From: an uncultured Actinomycetota bacterium
GTDB taxonomy: Bacteria > Actinomycetota > Actinomycetes > Mycobacteriales > Mycobacteriaceae
Assembly (NCBI GenBank): GCA_963786695.1
Contig: CAWBAL010000005.1
Location: 17,304 to 81,303, forward strand
DNA length: 64,000 nt
Direction of reading: 5' to 3'
The position numbers were made by a program, and so were the translations under genes. A model generated the notes under the pieces. That model was not told where the DNA came from. It worked only from the letters and a program-made list of their open reading frames with translations, and ran no database searches. Shown piece by piece: positions 55,153-64,000 of this stretch; position 1 is the stretch's first letter, and each line of letters begins with the position of its first letter.

Positions 55153-57930
55153 GTGGCAGGTAAGGCCCGTGTACACGAGTTGGCCAAAGAACTCGGTGTC
55201 ACCAGTAAGGAAGTTCTCGCCCGCCTGAGCGAACAGGGCGAATTCGTCAAGTCAGCGTCGTCGACGGTGGAAGCACCCGTCGCCCGGCGGCTGCGTGAGT
55301 CGTTCGGCGGCGCCAAGGCCCCCGCAGCGGAGAAGCCCGCCCCGGCCAAGGCCGTGGGCAACGGCGCACCGGCCAAGGCACCCGTCGATGCCGGCTCCGT
55401 CGCCGCCGCGCCGCCCCAGGCGCCCGCACCCAAGCCGGCTGCACCTGCACCCGCACCCGCCCCGGCGGCACCCGCGCCGGCTGCGCCCGCCCCGGCGGCC
55501 CCCGCAGCCACTGCCCCTGCGGCTCCGGCGGCCCCGCAAACCGGTGCACCGACCCCCGGGGCTCCGCGGCCGGTCCCCGGTGGGCCCAAGCCCGGCCTGC
55601 CGCGCCCGCCGCGCGTCGGCAACAACCCGTTCTCCAGCGCACAGCCGGTCGAGCGTCCGATCCCGCGTCCGCAGGGTCCGCGTCCCGGTCCCGGCGCAGC
55701 CAGGACCCGCGTCCCGGTGCACCCCGTCCCGGTGGTGCCACACCGGGCAACATGCCGCCGCGCCCCGGTGGCGGTGCAGCCCGTCCGGCACGTCCCGGCG
55801 CTCCGCGCCCCGGCGGTGGTCCGCGTCCCGGTGGTCCTGGCGGCCAGGGTGGCGGCGGTCGTCCCGGTGGTGGCGGCGGTGGCGGTAACTACCGCACCGG
55901 CGGTCCCGGCGGTGCCGGCGGCGGTGCAGGCGCAGGCGGAGCGGCTGCTGGAGGTTTCCGCGGTCGTCCCGGCGGTGGTGGCGGCGGTGGCCGTCCCGGT
56001 CAGCGCGGTGGCGCAGCCGGCGCGTTCGGCCGTCCCGGCGGCGCCCCGCGCCGCGGCCGCAAGTCGAAGCGGGCGAAACGCGCCGAGTACGAGAACATGC
56101 AGGCCCCGGTCGTCGGTGGCGTGCGGTTGCCGCACGGCAACGGCGAGACCATCCGGCTGGCCCGCGGCGCGTCGCTGAGCGACTTCGCCGAGAAGATCGA
56201 CGCCAACCCGGCCTCGCTGGTGCAGGCGCTGTTCAACCTCGGCGAGATGGTGACCGCCACCCAGTCGGTGGGTGACGAGACCCTCGAGCTGCTCGGCAGC
56301 GAGATGAACTACGTCGTGCAGGTCGTCTCGCCCGAGGACGAGGACCGCGAGCTGCTGGAGTCCTTCGACCTCACCTACGGCGAGGACGAGGGCGACGAGG
56401 AGGACCTCGAGCACCGGCCGCCGGTGGTCACCGTCATGGGCCACGTCGATCACGGCAAGACCCGACTGCTGGACACCATCCGTCAGGCCAGCGTCCGCGA
56501 GGGCGAGGCCGGCGGCATCACCCAGCACATCGGTGCCTACCAGGTGGCCGTCGAGCACGACGGTCTCGAGCGCCTGATCACCTTCATCGACACCCCGGGT
56601 CACGAGGCGTTCACCGCCATGCGTGCCCGCGGTGCGAAGGCCACCGACATCGCCATCCTGGTGGTGGCCGCCGACGACGGTGTCATGCCGCAGACGGTGG
56701 AGGCCATCAACCACGCGCAGGCGGCCGACGTGCCGATCGTGGTCGCGGTCAACAAGATCGACAAGGAAGGCGCCGATCCGGCAGAAGATCCGGTCGCAGC
56801 TGACCGAGTACGGCCTGGTTGCCGAGGACTTCGGCGGCGACACCATGTTCGTCGACATCTCGGCGAAGAACGGCACCAACATCAAGGCGCTGGAGGAAGC
56901 GGTGCTGCTGACCGCCGACGCGGCACTGGACCTGCGGGCCAACCCCGACATGGAAGCCCAGGGTGTGGCCATCGAGGCGCACCTGGACCGCGGCCGCGGC
57001 CCGGTGGCCACCGTGCTGATCACCCGCGGAACGCTGCGGGTCGGCGACTCGGTGGTGGCCGGCGACGCCTACGGCCGAGTCCGCCGGATGGTCGACGAGC
57101 ACGGCGAGGACGTCGAAGAGGCGTACCCGTCGCGGCCGGTTCAGGTCATCGGCTTCACGTCGGTGCCCGGCGCCGGCGACAACTTCCTGGTTGTCGACGA
57201 AGACCGCATCGCCCGCCAGATCGCCGACCGGCGCAGCGCCCGCAAGCGCAACGCGCTGGCGGCCCGGGCACGCAAGCGGATCAGCCTGGAGGACCTGGAG
57301 TCGGCGCTGAAGGAAACCAGCCAGCTGAACCTGATCCTCAAGGGCGACAACGCCGGTACGGTCGAGGCGCTCGAGGAGGCCCTGCTGGGCATCCAGGTCG
57401 ACGACGAGGTGGAGCTGCGGGTCATCGACCGCGGTGTCGGTGGCATCACCGAGACCAACGTCAACCTGGCGTCGGCTTCGGATGCGATCATCATCGGCTT
57501 CAACGTCCGCGCCGAGGGCAAGGCCACCGAACTGGCCAACCGCGAGGGTGTGGAGATCCGCTACTACTCGGTGATCTACCAGGCGATCGACGAGATCGAG
57601 AAGGCCCTCAAGGGCATGCTCAAGCCGATCTACGAGGAGAAGGAGCTCGGCCGCGCCGAGATCCGGGCGATCTTCCGGTCGTCGAAGGTCGGCAACATCG
57701 CCGGTTGCCTCGTGCAGTCCGGCATCATGCGGCGCAACGCCAAGGCGCGGTTGCTGCGTGACAACGTCGTGGTGGCCGAGAACCTCACCGTCTCGTCGCT
57801 CAAGCGCGAGAAGGACGACGCCACCGAGGTCCGCGAGGGCTACGAATGCGGTCTGACGCTGACGTACGGCGACATCAAGGAAGGCGACGTCATCGAGACC
57901 TACGAGTTGGTCGAGAAGGCGCGGGTCTAG
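55153..57930 (+). CDS. infB: Translation initiation factor IF-2 (frameshifts near 55700 and 56780)
   Basis: [14 protein letters not shown], Pro/Gly-rich linker, [30 protein letters not shown]. Confidence 0.97.
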
Positions 57931-57971
57931 ATGACGCCTGATCGAAGTGAGAGCGCGAGTGAAGCAGTCGA

Positions 57972-59441
<1,470 letters not shown>

Positions 59442-59445
59442 GGGT

Positions 59446-60782
59446 TTGACCGAACCCGGCGCCGACGCTGCCTCCCCGCGGCGCATCGCGGCACTGGCGT
59501 TTCCGGCGCTGGGGGTGCTGGCCGCCGAGCCGGTCTATCTGTTGTTCGACATCGCCATCGTCGGCCGGCTGGGCGCCCTGGCCCTGGCCGGCCTGGCGAT
59601 CGGCGGGCTGATCCTGTCGGTGGTCAGCTCGCAGCTGACCTTCCTGTCCTACGGCACCACCGCCCGTTCGGCGCGCTTCTACGGTGCCGGTGATCGCGCC
59701 TCAGCGGTCGGCGAGGGCGTGCAGGCCACCTGGCTGGCGCTGGGCCTCGGCGTGGCCATCGTCGCGGTGGTGCAGTTGGCCGCGGTTCCGCTGGTGTCGG
59801 TGATCGCGGGCACGGCCTCCGGCGGCGGGCATCGCCGCCGCCGCGATGCCGTGGCTGCGCATCGCGATCCTCGGTGTGCCGGCCATCCTGATGTCGGCGG
59901 CCGGCAACGGCTGGATGCGCGGGGTGCAGGACACCATGCGGCCGCTGCGCTACGTGCTGATCGGGTTCGGCATCTCGGCGGTGCTGTGTCCCGCTGCTGG
60001 TCTACGGCTGGCTGGGTCTGCCGCGGCTGGAGCTGGCCGGTTCGGCGGTGGCCAATCTGGTGGGGCAGTGGCTGGCCGCGGTGCTGTTCTGCCGCGCGCT
60101 TCTGGTCGAGAAGGTTCCGCTGCGGCTCGACCTCTCGGTGCTGCGGGCGCAGGTCGTGATGGGCCGCGATCTGGTGTTGCGCACCATGGCCTTTCAGGCC
60201 TGCTTCGTGTCGGCGGCTGCGGTGGCCGCGCGGTTCGGTGCCGCGGCGGTGGCCGCCCACCAGGTGGTGCTGCAGCTGTGGAACTTCCTTGCGCTGGTGC
60301 TGGATTCACTGGCCATCGCTGCGCAGTCGTTGGTCGGTGCCGCGCTGGGTGCGGGTCGGACCGGCGCACGCCAAGTCGGTGGCGTGGCGAGTCACGGTGT
60401 TCTCGACGATCGCCGCGGTGGTCCTGGCGGTCGTGTTCGCGGTGGGCGCCTCGGTGCTGCCGTCGCTGTTCACCGACGACCGCTCGGTGCTCGACGCGAT
60501 CGGGGTGCCGTGGTGGTTCATGGTGGCGCAGTTGCCGATTGCCGGCATCGTCTTCGCGCTCGACGGTGTGCTGCTCGGTGCCGGGGATGCCGCCTTCATG
60601 CGCAGCGCGACGTTGATCAGCGCGCTGATCGGCTTCCTGCCGCTGATCTGGCTGTCGCTGGCCTTCGGCTGGGGCCTGCTCGGCATCTGGGCCGGGCTGA
60701 GCAGCGTTCATGGTGCTGCGGCTCGGTGTTCGTCGGCTGGCGGGCCTTCTCCGGCCGCTGGCTGGTTTCGGGCACCGGTTAG
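59446..60782 (+). CDS. dinF: MATE-family efflux protein (Rv2836c/DinF-like; frameshifts)
   Basis: LAFPALGVLAAEPVY, FLSYGTTAR, GWMRGVQDT, AAHQV, FALDGVLLGAGD. Confidence 0.9.
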
Positions 60783-61449
60783 GTCGCGCACCAGATGGTC
60801 TCGGCCAGCATGCGCCGAAGCCAGGAGCGGTAGCGGGGCATGCTCCAGCCGTCGCGGCGTGTCACGCGCAGGAACGTGTCGACCCCCGACAGCACGGCGG
60901 ACCGTCGCGACGAGCTCGTCGAACGGCACGTCGTCACGTAGCCATCCGCGGTCGCGGCAGACGGTCAGTATTCGACGGTTCTGGGCCGTGACGCCGGCGA
61001 ACAGTTCGTCGAGGTAGCGGTCCAACTCGGCGTCGGATGCCGCCGCTCCGATCAGGGCCTGCGAAAGGCCGGCGCTGCGTTGGTGCACCTCCGTCTGCTT
61101 CGACACCAGGTAATCGATGGCGTCGTCTCGGTCGTCGATGTCGAGGAACCGGCGGCCGATCTCCAGGTCGAGGATGTTCTCCTCACCGGAGACCCCGAAC
61201 GTCGACGTACTCGACGGCCGCCACCATCAGTGCCGCCTTCGGGCCGTGCGTCTGAACGGTTTCGGTGGAGACACCTGCCGCGGCGGCGATCTTCGCCAGC
61301 GTGGTGCGCGCGTAGCCCTCGGCGGCGAACAGTTCGGCTGCGGCGGCGACGATGCGTTCCCGGGTCTGCTCGGCCTGCTGCCTGCGCAGCTCGGATCGGT
61401 AGCGGCGGGTCTGCTCTGAACTCTTGCCAATATTTGGCTTTGGTGCCAT
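60779..61449 (-). CDS. TetR-family regulator (frameshifts)
   Basis: RRYRSELRRQQAEQTRERIVAAAAELFAAEGYARTTLAKIAAAAGVSTETV HTH. Confidence 0.88.
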
Positions 61450-61463
61450 AGTAACGAATACTA
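61449..61463. promoter_or_regulatory. Candidate TetR operator in the short divergent spacer
   Basis: TAGTA-acgaa-TACTA palindrome in an AT-rich spacer. Confidence 0.4.
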
Positions 61464-61496
61464 ACACTACCGTAATCAAAGCCGTGGGGGTGCCAG

Positions 61497-62803
61497 GTGT
61501 CGTCGATCATCATCGCCAGCGTGCCGGTGCACGGTCACGTCACGCCGCTGCTGGCCGTCGCGCGGCGCTTCGTCGACCGCGGGGACGACGTCCGGTTCAT
61601 CACCGGTGCGCGATTCGCCGAACGCGGTGACGGCCACCGGCGCCACCCACGTCCCGCTGCCCGCCGAAGCCGATTACGACGAGCAGATCTTCGAGCAGTT
61701 CCCCGAACGCGCCCACCTGAAGGGCGCCAAGGCGATCGCCTTCGACGTCGAGCACGTCTTCGCCAAACCGGCGAAGGCCCAGTACCACGCGCTGCTGGAC
61801 GCGCACCGGCAACGCCCCGCCGACGCGGTGCTCTCCGACCCCGCGTTCTCGGCGCCGCGTTCATGTTGGCGCACCACGTGCCGACCCGCCCGGCGGTGGT
61901 GATGTGCGGTGTCCTTCCGCTGCCCGTCGACAGCCGCGACACCGCACCGTTCGGCATGGGCCTGCCGCCCGCTCGCTGGCTCAACCGCCCGCGCAACGCA
62001 GCGCTGGCAGTCCTCGAACCGGCGCGTGCTGGCCGGCGCCAATCGGATGGTGGACGACTTCCATCGCGAGGTGCATGGCACGGATGCCTGCGGACCGTCG
62101 AATTGGGCGCGCCGCGCCGACGCGATCGTCCAGTTCACCGTCGAGGCGTTCGAGTATCCGCGTTCCGACGCGCCGCCACAGTTGCATTTCGTCGGTCCGC
62201 TGTCGGCCACCGGTTCACAGGCGCCGCTGCCGCCGTGGTGGGACGAACTGGACGGGACACGGCCGGTCGTCCATGTCACCCAGGGCACGGTCGCCAACAC
62301 CGACTACGAGCAGCTGATCGCGCCGACGCTGCGGGCGCTCGCCGACGACGACGTCCTGGTGGTCGTCACGACCGGGGGCCGCCCGTTGGACACCTTGCCG
62401 CCACTACCTGCCAACGCCCGCGCTGCAACCTTTCTGCCGTACGACGAATTGCTGCCTCGCACAGCCGTTTACGTCACCAACGGCGGCTACGGCGGTGTCC
62501 AGTACGCACTACGTTACGGCGTGCCGATCGTCGCGACCGGCGGCAAGGAGGACAAGCCGGAGGTCGGCGCTCGAGTCGCGTGGTCGGGCGTCGGTCGCCG
62601 AATCAGGTCGGAGAATCCGAAGCCGGCTGCAACTGCGAACCGCCATCCACGACGTGTTGAACAGCCCGAAGTACCGCGAGGCCAGTCGGCGCATCGCGAC
62701 AGATCTTGCTGCAGCGCCGGGCTTTTCCGGATTGGCCGCTGTCGTCGATCAGCTGACGGGTCAGCGCGTTGAGTCAGAAGCGGTGCAGACGAAGTTCGAG
62801 TAA
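61497..62803 (+). CDS. GT1 (MGT/UDPGT-like) glycosyltransferase (frameshifts)
   Basis: PVHGHVTP, VHVTQGT, FLPYDELLP...VTNGGYGGV...GVP...EDKPEV PSPG-like box. Confidence 0.88.
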
Positions 62804-62833
62804 GCCACTGCCAGATGTCTGACTCAACGCCGT

Positions 62834-63594
62834 CTAGTTGACTTGGGCGCGGCCGCGTTCGATCACCGAGGCGCGGCTGGCGGCGATGTCGTCACCGCTG
62901 GCCTGTGCCATCCACTTACGCGCGGAGGCCGCTTCGATCCACAGTCCCGAGCTGGTCTGGTCCTCGTCGATGCGATGGTAGGAGGCCAGCAGCGCGCGGA
63001 CCGCCTTCTGGTTGTTGCCGACGATCGAGGACGCCATCGCGCGCGCGACCGGAAGCAGGTCATCGTGCGGCACCACCTGGGTGACCAGACCGGCCCGTAG
63101 AGCGTCCTCTGCCGACAGGTAGTCGCCGGTCAGGCTCATCCGGCGAGCCATGCCGACGCCCACCTTCTGCGGCAACCGCACGCTCAAGCCCCATGTCGGC
63201 AGCAGTCCCGACCCGGGCGTGCGTGTCGGCGAAGCGCGCCCGCTCGGAGGCGATCAGGATGTCGCAGTACAGCGCCAGTTCCAGTCCACCGGTCACCGCC
63301 GCGCCGTTGATCGCACCGATGACGGGCTTGGTCATCGGCGGCCACTTCGGCGAGATGTCGGGCAGTTCGGTGGTGTCGCCGAGTTCCTTGAGGTCGAGGC
63401 CCGCGCAGAACACCGGGTCCGCGCCGGTGACGATCACCACGTCGACGTCGCTCGTCAGCGTCGGCGTCGCGCAGGGCGGCGAAGAACTGCTTGCGCAGCG
63501 CCGCGGAGAGCGCGTTGCGCGAGCCCGGTCGATTGAACGTGATGGTTCGTACCCGGTCGGTGGTCTCGATGAGCAGAATATCTTCGCTGGTCAT
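62834..63594 (-). CDS. echA16: Enoyl-CoA hydratase (Rv2831-like; frameshifts)
   Basis: FNRPGSRNALS, FCAGLDL, KPVIGAINGAAVTGGLEL, FADTHARVG. Confidence 0.9.
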
Positions 63595-63611
63595 AGCGAC
63601 ACCGTAGCCAC

Positions 63612-63705
63612 CGATACAGAAGGGCCTGGCTCGGGGGGACAGCCAGGCCCTTCTTTCGTCCCCGATCCGGTGGGAGGGGACCATTGGGGACGTCACGACG
63701 ATATC
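63612..63705 (-). ncRNA. Candidate 6C-like small RNA (two C-rich-loop hairpins)
   Basis: TAGGGT -10 at 63716-63711; hairpin 1 loop CCCCUCCC; hairpin 2 14-bp stem with loop GUCCCCCCG, ending in UUCUGUAU. Confidence 0.65.
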
Positions 63706-63713
63706 GAAGGACC

Positions 63714-64000
63714 CTATGCGTCAGCTTTGAAGTGCGCGGCGGTGAGCGAACGGCTCACGGCCGGGGGTGGCTCGCCTTCGACCCCGGAAGGTGGCTCGAC
63801 CAGTGTCGGACCCGGAAGAACCAGTGCCGGAACCAGAGTCGGTCGCCGAGTCTGCCGGTCGCCCGTGTCGGTCCCGGAGCCTGAACCGGTACCGGGACCG
63901 CCGGCCGCGGGCAGCGGGACCGGGAGGTCCGTCGGCAGGGTGATCACGAGAACGCGGCAGGGTGCCATTGTTGGAGCGCGACGGCCCGGGCTGGCCACCG
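63714..64000 (-). CDS. C-terminal Pro/Gly/Thr-rich end of a hypothetical protein (5'-partial; true stop may be near 63755)
   Basis: Open frame running off the window edge; low-complexity sequence. Confidence 0.45.
   Translation of the reverse strand, partial: VASPGRRAPTMAPCRVLVITLPTDLPVPLPAAGGPGTGSGSGTDTGDRQTRRPTLVPALVLPGPTLVEPPSGVEGEPPPAVSRSLTAAHFKADA

What the first reader, a model, noticed from the sequence alone, without database searches (positions are those of the whole stretch)
63612..63716. Candidate 6C-like small RNA at a non-canonical locus upstream of echA16
Seen: on the minus strand a TAGGGT -10 hexamer (63716-63711) is followed about 6-7 nt later by a ~90-nt unit of two adjacent hairpins. 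Hairpin 1 has an outer stem CGUCCCC/GGGGACG, inner GGU/ACC and loop CCCCUCCC. Hairpin 2 has a perfect 14-bp stem (AGAAGGGCCUGGCU/AGCCAGGCCCUUCU) whose loop GUCCCCCCG holds six consecutive C, and ends in UUCUGUAU. echA16 has its own leaderless -10 (TACGGT, 6 nt before ATG), so this unit need not be its 5'UTR. Known: the actinobacterial 6C RNA (M. tuberculosis B11, near Rv3660c/Rv3661), MrsI and F6 carry C-rich loops, which in 6C pair with G-rich mRNA sites. Inference: a second, possibly undescribed 6C-architecture trans-acting sRNA.
Basis: partly seen in the sequence, partly recalled or inferred. Interest (0 to 1): 0.78.

Follow-up and report, generated by a model that had tools for sequence, protein, structure and literature searches.

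The report
Lineage-specific second 6C-like small RNA
A small group of environmental mycobacteria carries a strongly conserved, roughly 75-base folded element with two cytosine-rich loops, in addition to their ordinary 6C RNA gene; it is likely a separately transcribed regulatory RNA predicted to block ribosome-binding sites, but no transcript or target has been seen.

Summary
The two hairpins are real (fold z = -3.98). The unit is not Rfam 6C: it scores 33 bits against a cut-off of 47, and the canonical 6C gene lies elsewhere in this genome (86 bits, beside Ms1). I found it in 4 of 400 Mycobacterium genomes and two metagenome contigs. It always lies between a predicted lipoprotein gene and echA16. 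Selection on it is strong: in the most distant pairs the RNA core is 65/68 identical, while echA16 fourfold sites are 51-58% identical, the promoter spacer 4-5/14 and the lipoprotein 56-57%. Both loops are invariant; covariation is not significant. TATCGT/TACTGT, 6-7 nt before hairpin 1, is kept in 6 of 6, so the RNA is more likely about 75-78 nt from 63691 than about 90 nt. Best reading: an independently transcribed 6C-type RNA pairing with G-rich mRNA sites (0.6). No transcript end or conserved target was found. Extra 6C copies in mycobacteria are already published (PMC9569102); this sequence is not among them. It is a new variant of a known kind.

The parts
63718..63725 (-). Invariant 8-mer GCTGACGC at about -34 to -27 of the predicted start; possible -35 or activator site (inferred). 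It contains the TGA stop of the upstream gene in G216 and L186.
   Evidence: Invariant in 6 of 6 homologues, exactly 14 nt before the -10, while the spacer diverges to 3-5/14. No enrichment at other -10 sites of the genome.
63698..63703 (-). Predicted -10 hexamer TATCGT (TANNNT) of the RNA's own promoter
   Evidence: TATCGT in 5 and TACTGT in 1 of 6 homologues, 6-7 nt before GUCCCC. The same TACTGT change is in relative contigs of runs X1 and X2 (places 63700 and 63701).
63711..63716 (-).
   Evidence: TANNNT at this place in 3 of 6 homologues (G000, G216, L187)
63614..63691 (-). Predicted RNA, about 75-78 nt, two C-loop hairpins
63657..63692 (-). Hairpin 1: outer stem (C)GUCCCC/GGGGAC(G), 3-nt bulge, inner stem GGUCC/GGAUC, loop CCUCCCACC at 63677-63669
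   Evidence: 11 of 12 pairs never vary and 1 has a G-C to G-U change; loop invariant in 6 of 6.
63618..63654 (-). Hairpin 2: 14-bp stem, loop GUCCCCCCG at 63640-63632 (six C); probably also the terminator hairpin
   Evidence: Loop invariant in 6 of 6. The U-rich tail varies from UUUUUGUAU (L187) to UUCCCCAU (L186).
63601..63606 (-). Leaderless -10 (TACGGT) of echA16, 6 nt before ATG
   Evidence: A TANNNT hexamer shortly before the start codon is seen by eye in many echA16 upstream regions that lack the RNA
62834..63594 (-). echA16-type enoyl-CoA hydratase gene; frameshifted in this assembly, intact (252 aa) in G202, G216, G380 and L187
   Evidence: Pfam ECH_1
63721..64000 (-). 3' end of a 450-510-aa predicted lipoprotein with a Pro/Ser/Thr-rich tail; continues beyond the window; no Pfam family
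   Evidence: Lipoprotein is inferred from a hydrophobic N-terminus followed by a conserved Cys.

Best explanation
The element is likely an independently transcribed, about 75-78-nt trans-acting small RNA of the 6C type, predicted to pair through its two exposed C-rich loops with G-rich ribosome-binding regions of mRNAs and to lower their translation. Shown here: the two-hairpin fold, invariant loops, strong sequence conservation, a conserved TANNNT at the right distance from hairpin 1, and a separate canonical 6C gene in all four carrier genomes. Inferred: a housekeeping-type promoter (TATCGT, 63703-63698) starts the RNA at about G63691, the first base of hairpin 1. Hairpin 2 with its U-rich tail ends most transcripts just before echA16's own -10. 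Loop 2 (GUCCCCCCG) differs by one base from canonical 6C loop L2 (GACCCCCCG) and would reach much the same G6-type sites. Loop 1 (CCUCCCACC) would add GGUGGGAGG-type, Shine-Dalgarno-like sites. In this lineage the RNA would supplement or retune the 6C regulon under a different promoter. One gain next to the lipoprotein gene explains its distribution.
For: Fold z -3.98. Six homologues (G000, G216, G202, G380; L186, L187) keep both loops invariant and 98.7% of stem cells paired, against 20-57% when partners are slid. G380 against the other five: RNA core 65/68 identical, promoter spacer 4-5/14, echA16 fourfold sites 70/138, 73/134 and 79/136, lipoprotein 56-57%. The -10 sits 6-7 nt before the first paired base in 6 of 6, the same spacing as echA16's leaderless promoter, and its only change hits the two free N positions. 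A model built from this RNA alone (R1) ranks 9 of 9 6C loci (20.9-27.7 bits) above all background (at most 14.9) in 36.9 kb. A model of the plasmid-type extra 6C finds it as best hit in the 64-kb window (30.4 bits, E 0.0056). Mechanism by analogy: 6C/B11 loops bind mRNA targets directly (PMC6486639, abstract and Results part 1; PMC10470900, passages). Eight mycobacteria have the same lipoprotein-echA16 pair without the element, so neither neighbour needs it. Carriers form one side of a 100/99 branch in the lipoprotein tree.
Against: No discrete transcript was seen. Relative contigs in 3 of 8 metatranscriptome runs cover the unit, but they run across the promoter and into echA16 at low depth (about 3-7), and may be DNA or read-through. 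Covariation is not above the shuffle control: 1 pair changed on both sides, 184 of 500 shuffles as high. Complements of the loops are not enriched before start codons in G000 (7 of 42 and 1 of 21, within the range of permuted words). Of 24 G380 GGTGGGAGG sites that align to G000 only 6 are kept, and by inspection none is a clear ribosome-binding site. The U tail is weak in three homologues. The invariant stems are more conserved than loop-only pairing requires, although canonical 6C is similarly conserved (91% per PMC6486639). Only six sequences, five of them closely related.
Confidence: 0.6

Rival explanations
1. The two hairpins are the 3' terminator or stabiliser of the upstream lipoprotein mRNA, insulating echA16. 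Any small RNA would be a 3'-UTR product.
For: The element starts about 30 nt after the gene's stop in G000, G216 and L186. Hairpin 2 resembles ordinary mycobacterial terminator-like hairpins: G315 has the same outer arms (R1 33.6 bits) and G000:C35 has another GAAGGGCC hairpin. Metatranscriptome contigs run through the promoter region.
Against: A terminator does not need invariant C-rich loops or a conserved -10. Eight relatives with the same gene pair have no such hairpins. The RNA is far more conserved than the gene it would terminate. The U tail is its least conserved part.
Confidence: 0.15
2. It is a cis-acting leader or attenuator that gives echA16 a second, regulated upstream promoter, with hairpin 2 as a conditional terminator.
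For: It always lies directly upstream of echA16 on the same strand, 17-29 nt from the tail to the ATG. The U tail is weak. Rfam itself types 6C as Cis-reg.
Against: echA16 keeps its own leaderless -10 in carriers and non-carriers, and 107 of 111 echA16 upstream regions examined lack the element. The only loop-1 pairing partner downstream (GGUGG at 63612-63608) is broken in G216 and absent in G380. No alternative antiterminator fold appeared in the ensembles.
Confidence: 0.12
3. It is a real small RNA that works by binding a protein through its conserved stems and C loops rather than by pairing with mRNA.
For: Near-invariant stems without compensatory change; no conserved mRNA target found. Protein recognition of C-rich stretches was raised as an alternative in PMC2764107 (passage).
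Against: For 6C, direct pairing without a cofactor is reported (PMC6486639, abstract), and canonical 6C also has near-invariant stems.
Confidence: 0.08
4. The plus strand is the functional one: a G-loop RNA that would sponge canonical 6C, or a short ORF behind a GGGAGG site (63684-63884).
For: The plus-strand loop 2 is complementary at 8 of 9 positions to canonical L2. A TTG follows GGGAGG in G000.
Against: No TANNNT on the plus strand upstream of the hairpins, whereas the minus-strand -10 is conserved. The start codon is absent in L186 and the frame differs in G380 and L187. All models score the minus strand higher.
Confidence: 0.05

Closest known systems
6C RNA / B11 (Rfam RF01066; PMC2764107, PMC6486639, PMC10470900)
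   Same: Two adjacent GC-rich hairpins with C-rich loops, the second followed by a U-rich tail; TANNNT -10 just upstream; full-model alignment 1-75/75 at 29.5-36 bits in five of six homologues; loop 2 differs by one base from canonical L2.
   Different: Below the 47-bit cut-off. No sequence similarity beyond C runs (286 of 300 shuffles score as well). Not beside Ms1. Lacks the 5' L1 hairpin of the 93-nt B11. The six-C loop is second and the CCUCCC loop first, the reverse of canonical order. Found in about 1% of genomes searched, against 149 of 151 for canonical 6C.
Plasmid-type 'extra 6C' of Behra et al. 2022 (PMC9569102 Fig. S10; here L166-L168, L289-L295, and three PLSDB plasmids)
   Same: Two-hairpin form of about 75 nt with a TANNNT (TAGCGT) just before hairpin 1. 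Shares the outer arms GAAGGGCC/GGCCCUUC, with two compensatory differences further up the stem. Contains the same two 9-mers, CCUCCCACC and CCCCCCGAG.
   Different: The two 9-mers are in swapped loops. The extra copies pass the Rfam cut-off (49-51 bits), and one checked lies beside type VII secretion-related genes on a plasmid. Model R2 scores this RNA only 22-30 bits, below canonical 6C (39-43) and level with an unrelated terminator-like hairpin (27.7), so descent from this subfamily is not established.
F6 sRNA (RF01791)
   Same: C-rich loop containing CCCCCCGA.
   Different: F6 is one long hairpin between fadA2 and fadE5 and is present separately in this genome (72.5 bits). No F6 hit at this locus.
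ar14 / cuckoo RNAs of Alphaproteobacteria (RF02344)
   Same: Tandem hairpins with CCUCCC-type anti-Shine-Dalgarno loops.
   Different: 22-30 bits against a cut-off of 58.8; lacks the full CCUCCUCCC motif; different phylum. Best read as convergence.

Membership tests
6C RNA (RF01066) | Score at or above the gathering threshold of 47 bits | tested here: not met
   33.1 bits in the window; 36, 32.8, 30.5 and 29.5 in four homologues; no 6C row for G380 at E<=5
6C RNA (RF01066) | Two adjacent hairpins, each with a run of about six C in the loop | tested here: inconclusive
   Two hairpins confirmed. Loop 2 has six C; loop 1 is CCUCCCACC (7 of 9 C) without a C6 run.
6C RNA (RF01066) | Locus one gene away from Ms1 | tested here: not met
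   That locus is occupied by the canonical gene on contig C51; this unit lies before echA16
6C RNA (RF01066) | Sequence similarity of stems to canonical mycobacterial 6C | tested here: not met
   Local alignment no better than shuffles
6C RNA (RF01066) | Own TANNNT promoter directly upstream and a terminator-like 3' hairpin | tested here: inconclusive
   Conserved -10 in 6 of 6; U tail variable; no 5' or 3' end mapped
6C RNA (RF01066) | Loop-dependent pairing with G-rich mRNA sites | not testable with these tools
   Word-complement searches gave no enrichment and no conserved site at a ribosome-binding position; needs experiment
Plasmid-type extra 6C (PMC9569102 Fig. S10) | Clear hit to a model of that subfamily | tested here: inconclusive
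   R2 gives 22-30 bits: best hit in the window (E 0.0056) but below canonical 6C and equal to an unrelated hairpin
F6 (RF01791) | Rfam hit and fadA2-fadE5 locus | tested here: not met
   No hit at E<=10 here; F6 found elsewhere
ar14 / cuckoo (RF02344) | Rfam score of 58.8 bits and CCUCCUCCC loops | tested here: not met
   22-30 bits; loops differ
MrsI | Sequence and locus of MrsI | not tested

The most novel reading that the evidence does not exclude
This is a loop-swapped 6C: it shows the same two seed words as the plasmid-borne extra 6C RNAs but in reversed hairpin order. With a third two-hairpin C6-loop unit in the same lineage (G000:C34, two copies in G216), it points to a hidden repertoire of lineage-specific 6C-type RNAs below the Rfam cut-off. 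Mycobacteria would use these to put a shared set of G-rich-RBS targets under new promoters, and they would be natural variants for asking which loop picks which target.
Probability: 0.3. Interest if true: 0.55.

Novelty: new variant of a known kind. Interest (0 to 1): 0.36.

Why it matters
6C/B11 is one of the few mycobacterial small RNAs with a worked-out, chaperone-independent mechanism. The role of extra 6C copies is an open question raised in PMC9569102. A divergent, strongly conserved version with the loops in reversed order and its own promoter is a natural variant for testing how loop sequence and position set target choice. It also shows that Rfam-based counts miss such RNAs. The reach is limited: it was found in about 1% of the genomes searched, and nothing yet links it to a phenotype.

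Tried and rejected
Generic promoter and terminator scan: nothing. Protein query for echA16 across the family: only 1 of 200 other genomes at E<=1e-25, because the window frame is broken and few candidates were scored; replaced by a DNA query. Two-loop pattern in viral contigs: 2 matches, neither with an R1 hit. blastn against plasmids: none; against phages: one 27-nt chance match. Pattern in genome contigs: 108 matches, of which 98 (L053-L150) were scored with R1. Two carried the RNA, with letters identical to rows already held, and were not counted again; the rest were chance. L151-L160 were not scored. R1 over 151 genomes: only the known carriers; weaker hits (24-37 bits) were single terminator-like hairpins or noise. 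That search scores only 29 candidates per genome, so distant homologues could be missed. A looser pattern over 21 genomes: no new unit by inspection of the matched strings. Eighty further echA16 upstream regions: best R1 score 13.1 bits. Eight of 13 listed RNA runs were laid: 3 have relative contigs over the unit and 5 do not; no ends can be read from contigs. Target search by perfect loop complements: no enrichment and no conserved ribosome-binding site. Regulon search for GCTGACGC-N14-TANNNT: 2 sites, no positional enrichment. A weak extra 5' hairpin around TATCG can be drawn in several homologues, but its register is not conserved and no upstream -10 fits it, so it was set aside. The reversed-genome control for the descriptor scan (6 units against 4 real) is uninformative, because reversal keeps base pairing. 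RNAalifold on ours plus plasmid-type copies misaligned hairpin 2 and was not used. The echA16 tree alone neither shows nor rules out one origin (2 changes, G380 unplaced).

Full report
Observation. The minus strand of 63692-63614 holds two adjacent hairpins as described. The 102-nt region folds at -50.9 kcal/mol, z -3.98, with 0 of 200 shuffles as stable. The minimum-energy inner stem of hairpin 1 is GGUCC/GGAUC, leaving the loop CCUCCCACC. Hairpin 2 is a perfect 14-bp stem with loop GUCCCCCCG. A descriptor scan for two C-rich hairpin loops found 4 units in 156 seed windows of the 5.8-Mb genome: canonical 6C, this unit, a unit on contig C34 and one weak candidate. Its reversed-genome control was uninformative.

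Rfam. At the locus, RF01066 (6C) aligns over the whole model at 33.1 bits (cut-off 47, E 0.038) and ar14 at 25.7 bits (cut-off 58.8); nothing reaches a cut-off. Four homologues score 29.5-36 bits to 6C and G380 gives no 6C row at E<=5. The canonical 6C gene lies at G000:C51:131898-131973 (86.2 bits), one gene from Ms1, and F6 lies on C6. G202, G216 and G380 also hold a canonical 6C at 88.5-89.5 bits, as do 149 of 151 genomes searched. The unit is therefore an addition to 6C, not a relocated copy.

Distribution. echA16-like DNA was found in 388 of 400 genus genomes. The 131-nt unit matched 11 of 400 at E<=0.01, but only G000, G202, G216 and G380 over its length; the other 7 are 22-48-nt fragments. 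A metagenome pattern scan added L186 and L187. I read 111 echA16 upstream regions, taken from the best-scoring matches and so biased towards near relatives. Four of 31 carry the unit, and 0 of 80 more (best R1 score 13.1 bits). Most have echA16 back to back with a small divergent gene, directly behind a leaderless TANNNT. In all six carriers the unit lies between echA16 and a 450-510-aa predicted lipoprotein with no Pfam family. Eight other genomes have that lipoprotein gene ending 21-30 nt before the echA16 ATG, with no hairpins. In the lipoprotein tree the four carriers tested form one side of a 100/99 branch (12 rows; L025 was left out as partial, G000 as frameshifted and L187 as lacking the domain). 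The echA16 tree groups five carriers and leaves G380 unplaced. A single gain or a single loss fits; the root is not known. It was not found in viral contigs, phages or plasmids.

Selection. Between G380 and the other five the RNA core is 65/68 identical. The 14-nt promoter spacer is 4-5/14, echA16 fourfold-degenerate sites are 70/138, 73/134 and 79/136 (against G202, L187, G216), and the lipoprotein is 56-57% identical. L186 against G000 gives 68/72 for the RNA and 3/14 for the spacer. Both loops are invariant in 6 of 6. Of 25 pairs, 21 never vary, 2 vary on one side, 1 on both sides and 1 departs only by an unpaired cell. 98.7% of cells pair, against 20-57% for slid partners, but covariation is not above the shuffle control (184 of 500). 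The structure thus rests on thermodynamics and tolerance of wobble changes, not on covariation.

Promoter and length. All six show GCTGACGC-N14-TA(TC/CT)GT-N6-7-GTCCCC. The only change in the hexamer is at the two free positions of the mycobacterial TANNNT consensus (consensus recalled; echA16's own TACGGT-N6-ATG is an internal example). Relative contigs in runs X1 and X2 show the same TACTGT change. The predicted start is G63691, the first paired base, and the RNA would be about 75-78 nt. This two-hairpin form lacks the small 5' hairpin of the 93-nt B11 (size and promoter from PMC2764107, passages; three loops from PMC6486639, Results part 1). The 8-mer GCTGACGC is unexplained: it contains the upstream stop codon in G216 and L186, but the longest upstream frames end earlier in G202 and G380, and it marks no regulon in G000.

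Expression. Thirteen RNA runs held 4-9% of the sampled words. Of 8 laid, X1, X2 and X3 have contigs of relatives across the unit, at depth about 3-7, continuing over the promoter and into echA16; the other 5 do not cover it. Contigs show no strand or ends and may contain DNA, so expression as a discrete RNA is neither shown nor excluded.

Relation to 6C. Model R1, built from four homologues only, scores the plasmid-type extra 6C at 27.3-27.7 bits and canonical 6C at 20.9-26.4. These are the nine top hits in 36.9 kb, above a background of at most 14.9. Behra et al. 2022 (PMC9569102; passages and supplement file 1 parts 11-12) already report extra 6C genes on chromosomes and plasmids in several mycobacterial clades. 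By eye none of the 16 extra rows of Fig. S10 is this sequence. The synteny panels of that figure were readable only as partly cut locus-tag text, so a link to echA16 there cannot be fully excluded. The plasmid-type extra (7 of 400 genomes, three plasmids) shares the arms GAAGGGCC/GGCCCUUC and both 9-mers CCUCCCACC and CCCCCCGAG with this RNA, in swapped loops. Against descent: those arms also occur in unrelated terminator-like hairpins, the shuffle test overstates hairpin matches, and R2 scores this RNA (22-30 bits) below canonical 6C (39-43) and level with such a hairpin. Searches for 'echA16' with 'sRNA' (3 papers, listing only, none on this by title or abstract start), '6C RNA' with 'mycobacter', 'C-rich loop' and 6C-like or second-copy terms showed no description of it. 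PMC6582537 (passages) treats only the regular gene.

Mechanism. 6C/B11 loops pair directly with G-rich target sites, and either loop can suffice (PMC6486639, abstract and Results part 1; PMC10470900, passages). By analogy, loop 2 (one base from canonical L2) would share G6-type targets and loop 1 would add GGUGGGAGG-type sites. I found no target. Loop complements are not enriched before candidate start codons (7 of 42 and 1 of 21). Of 38 G380 sites fetched, 24 aligned to G000 and 6 kept the word, none a clear ribosome-binding site on inspection. Perfect 9-mers are a strict test, since 6-nt matches suffice for B11. The terminator, echA16-leader, protein-binding and plus-strand readings are weighed under rivals.

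Verdict. A real, selected, lineage-restricted RNA element of 6C architecture outside the Rfam family; most likely a second trans-acting 6C-type RNA (0.6). The kind is known, extra copies are published, and earlier notes of this scan list several other sub-threshold 6C cousins in other taxa (unchecked). Interest 0.36.

Noticed in passing
G000:C34:302544-302643 (+); L005/L278, homologues L279, L280, L287: A third two-hairpin unit with C6-C7 loops (UACCCCCCGU and ACCCCCC), 20.1 bits to 6C, no Rfam hit. Present in G202 (1 copy) and G216 (2 copies, one beside transposase-like ORFs); full-length matches in 3 of 201 genomes. Probably another lineage-specific 6C-type RNA.
   Followed up: partly
G216:C62:19441-19524 (-): A further sub-threshold 6C hit (31.3 bits) on the contig that also holds a copy of the C34-type unit.
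   Followed up: no
L166-L168, L289-L295, L319: Plasmid-type extra 6C subfamily with its own TAGCGT -10, beside type VII secretion-related genes on plasmid pELW1-1 and not annotated there.
   Followed up: partly
window 55153-63594: infB, rbfA, nrnA, the MATE-type gene, the glycosyltransferase and echA16 all appear split by single-base indels. echA16 is intact in relatives, so these are probably assembly errors. Gene names other than echA16 are from recall of the translations.
   Followed up: partly
window 63721-64000 and beyond (G000:C5 to about 82580): A 450-510-aa predicted lipoprotein with a Pro/Ser/Thr-rich tail and no Pfam family, inserted with a TetR-like gene between the usual divergent neighbour and echA16 in a subset of mycobacteria.
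   Followed up: partly
L003 (G000:C37:140661-140744, -): Two hairpins with partly C-rich loops between convergent genes, 25 bits to 6C, no Rfam family.
   Followed up: no
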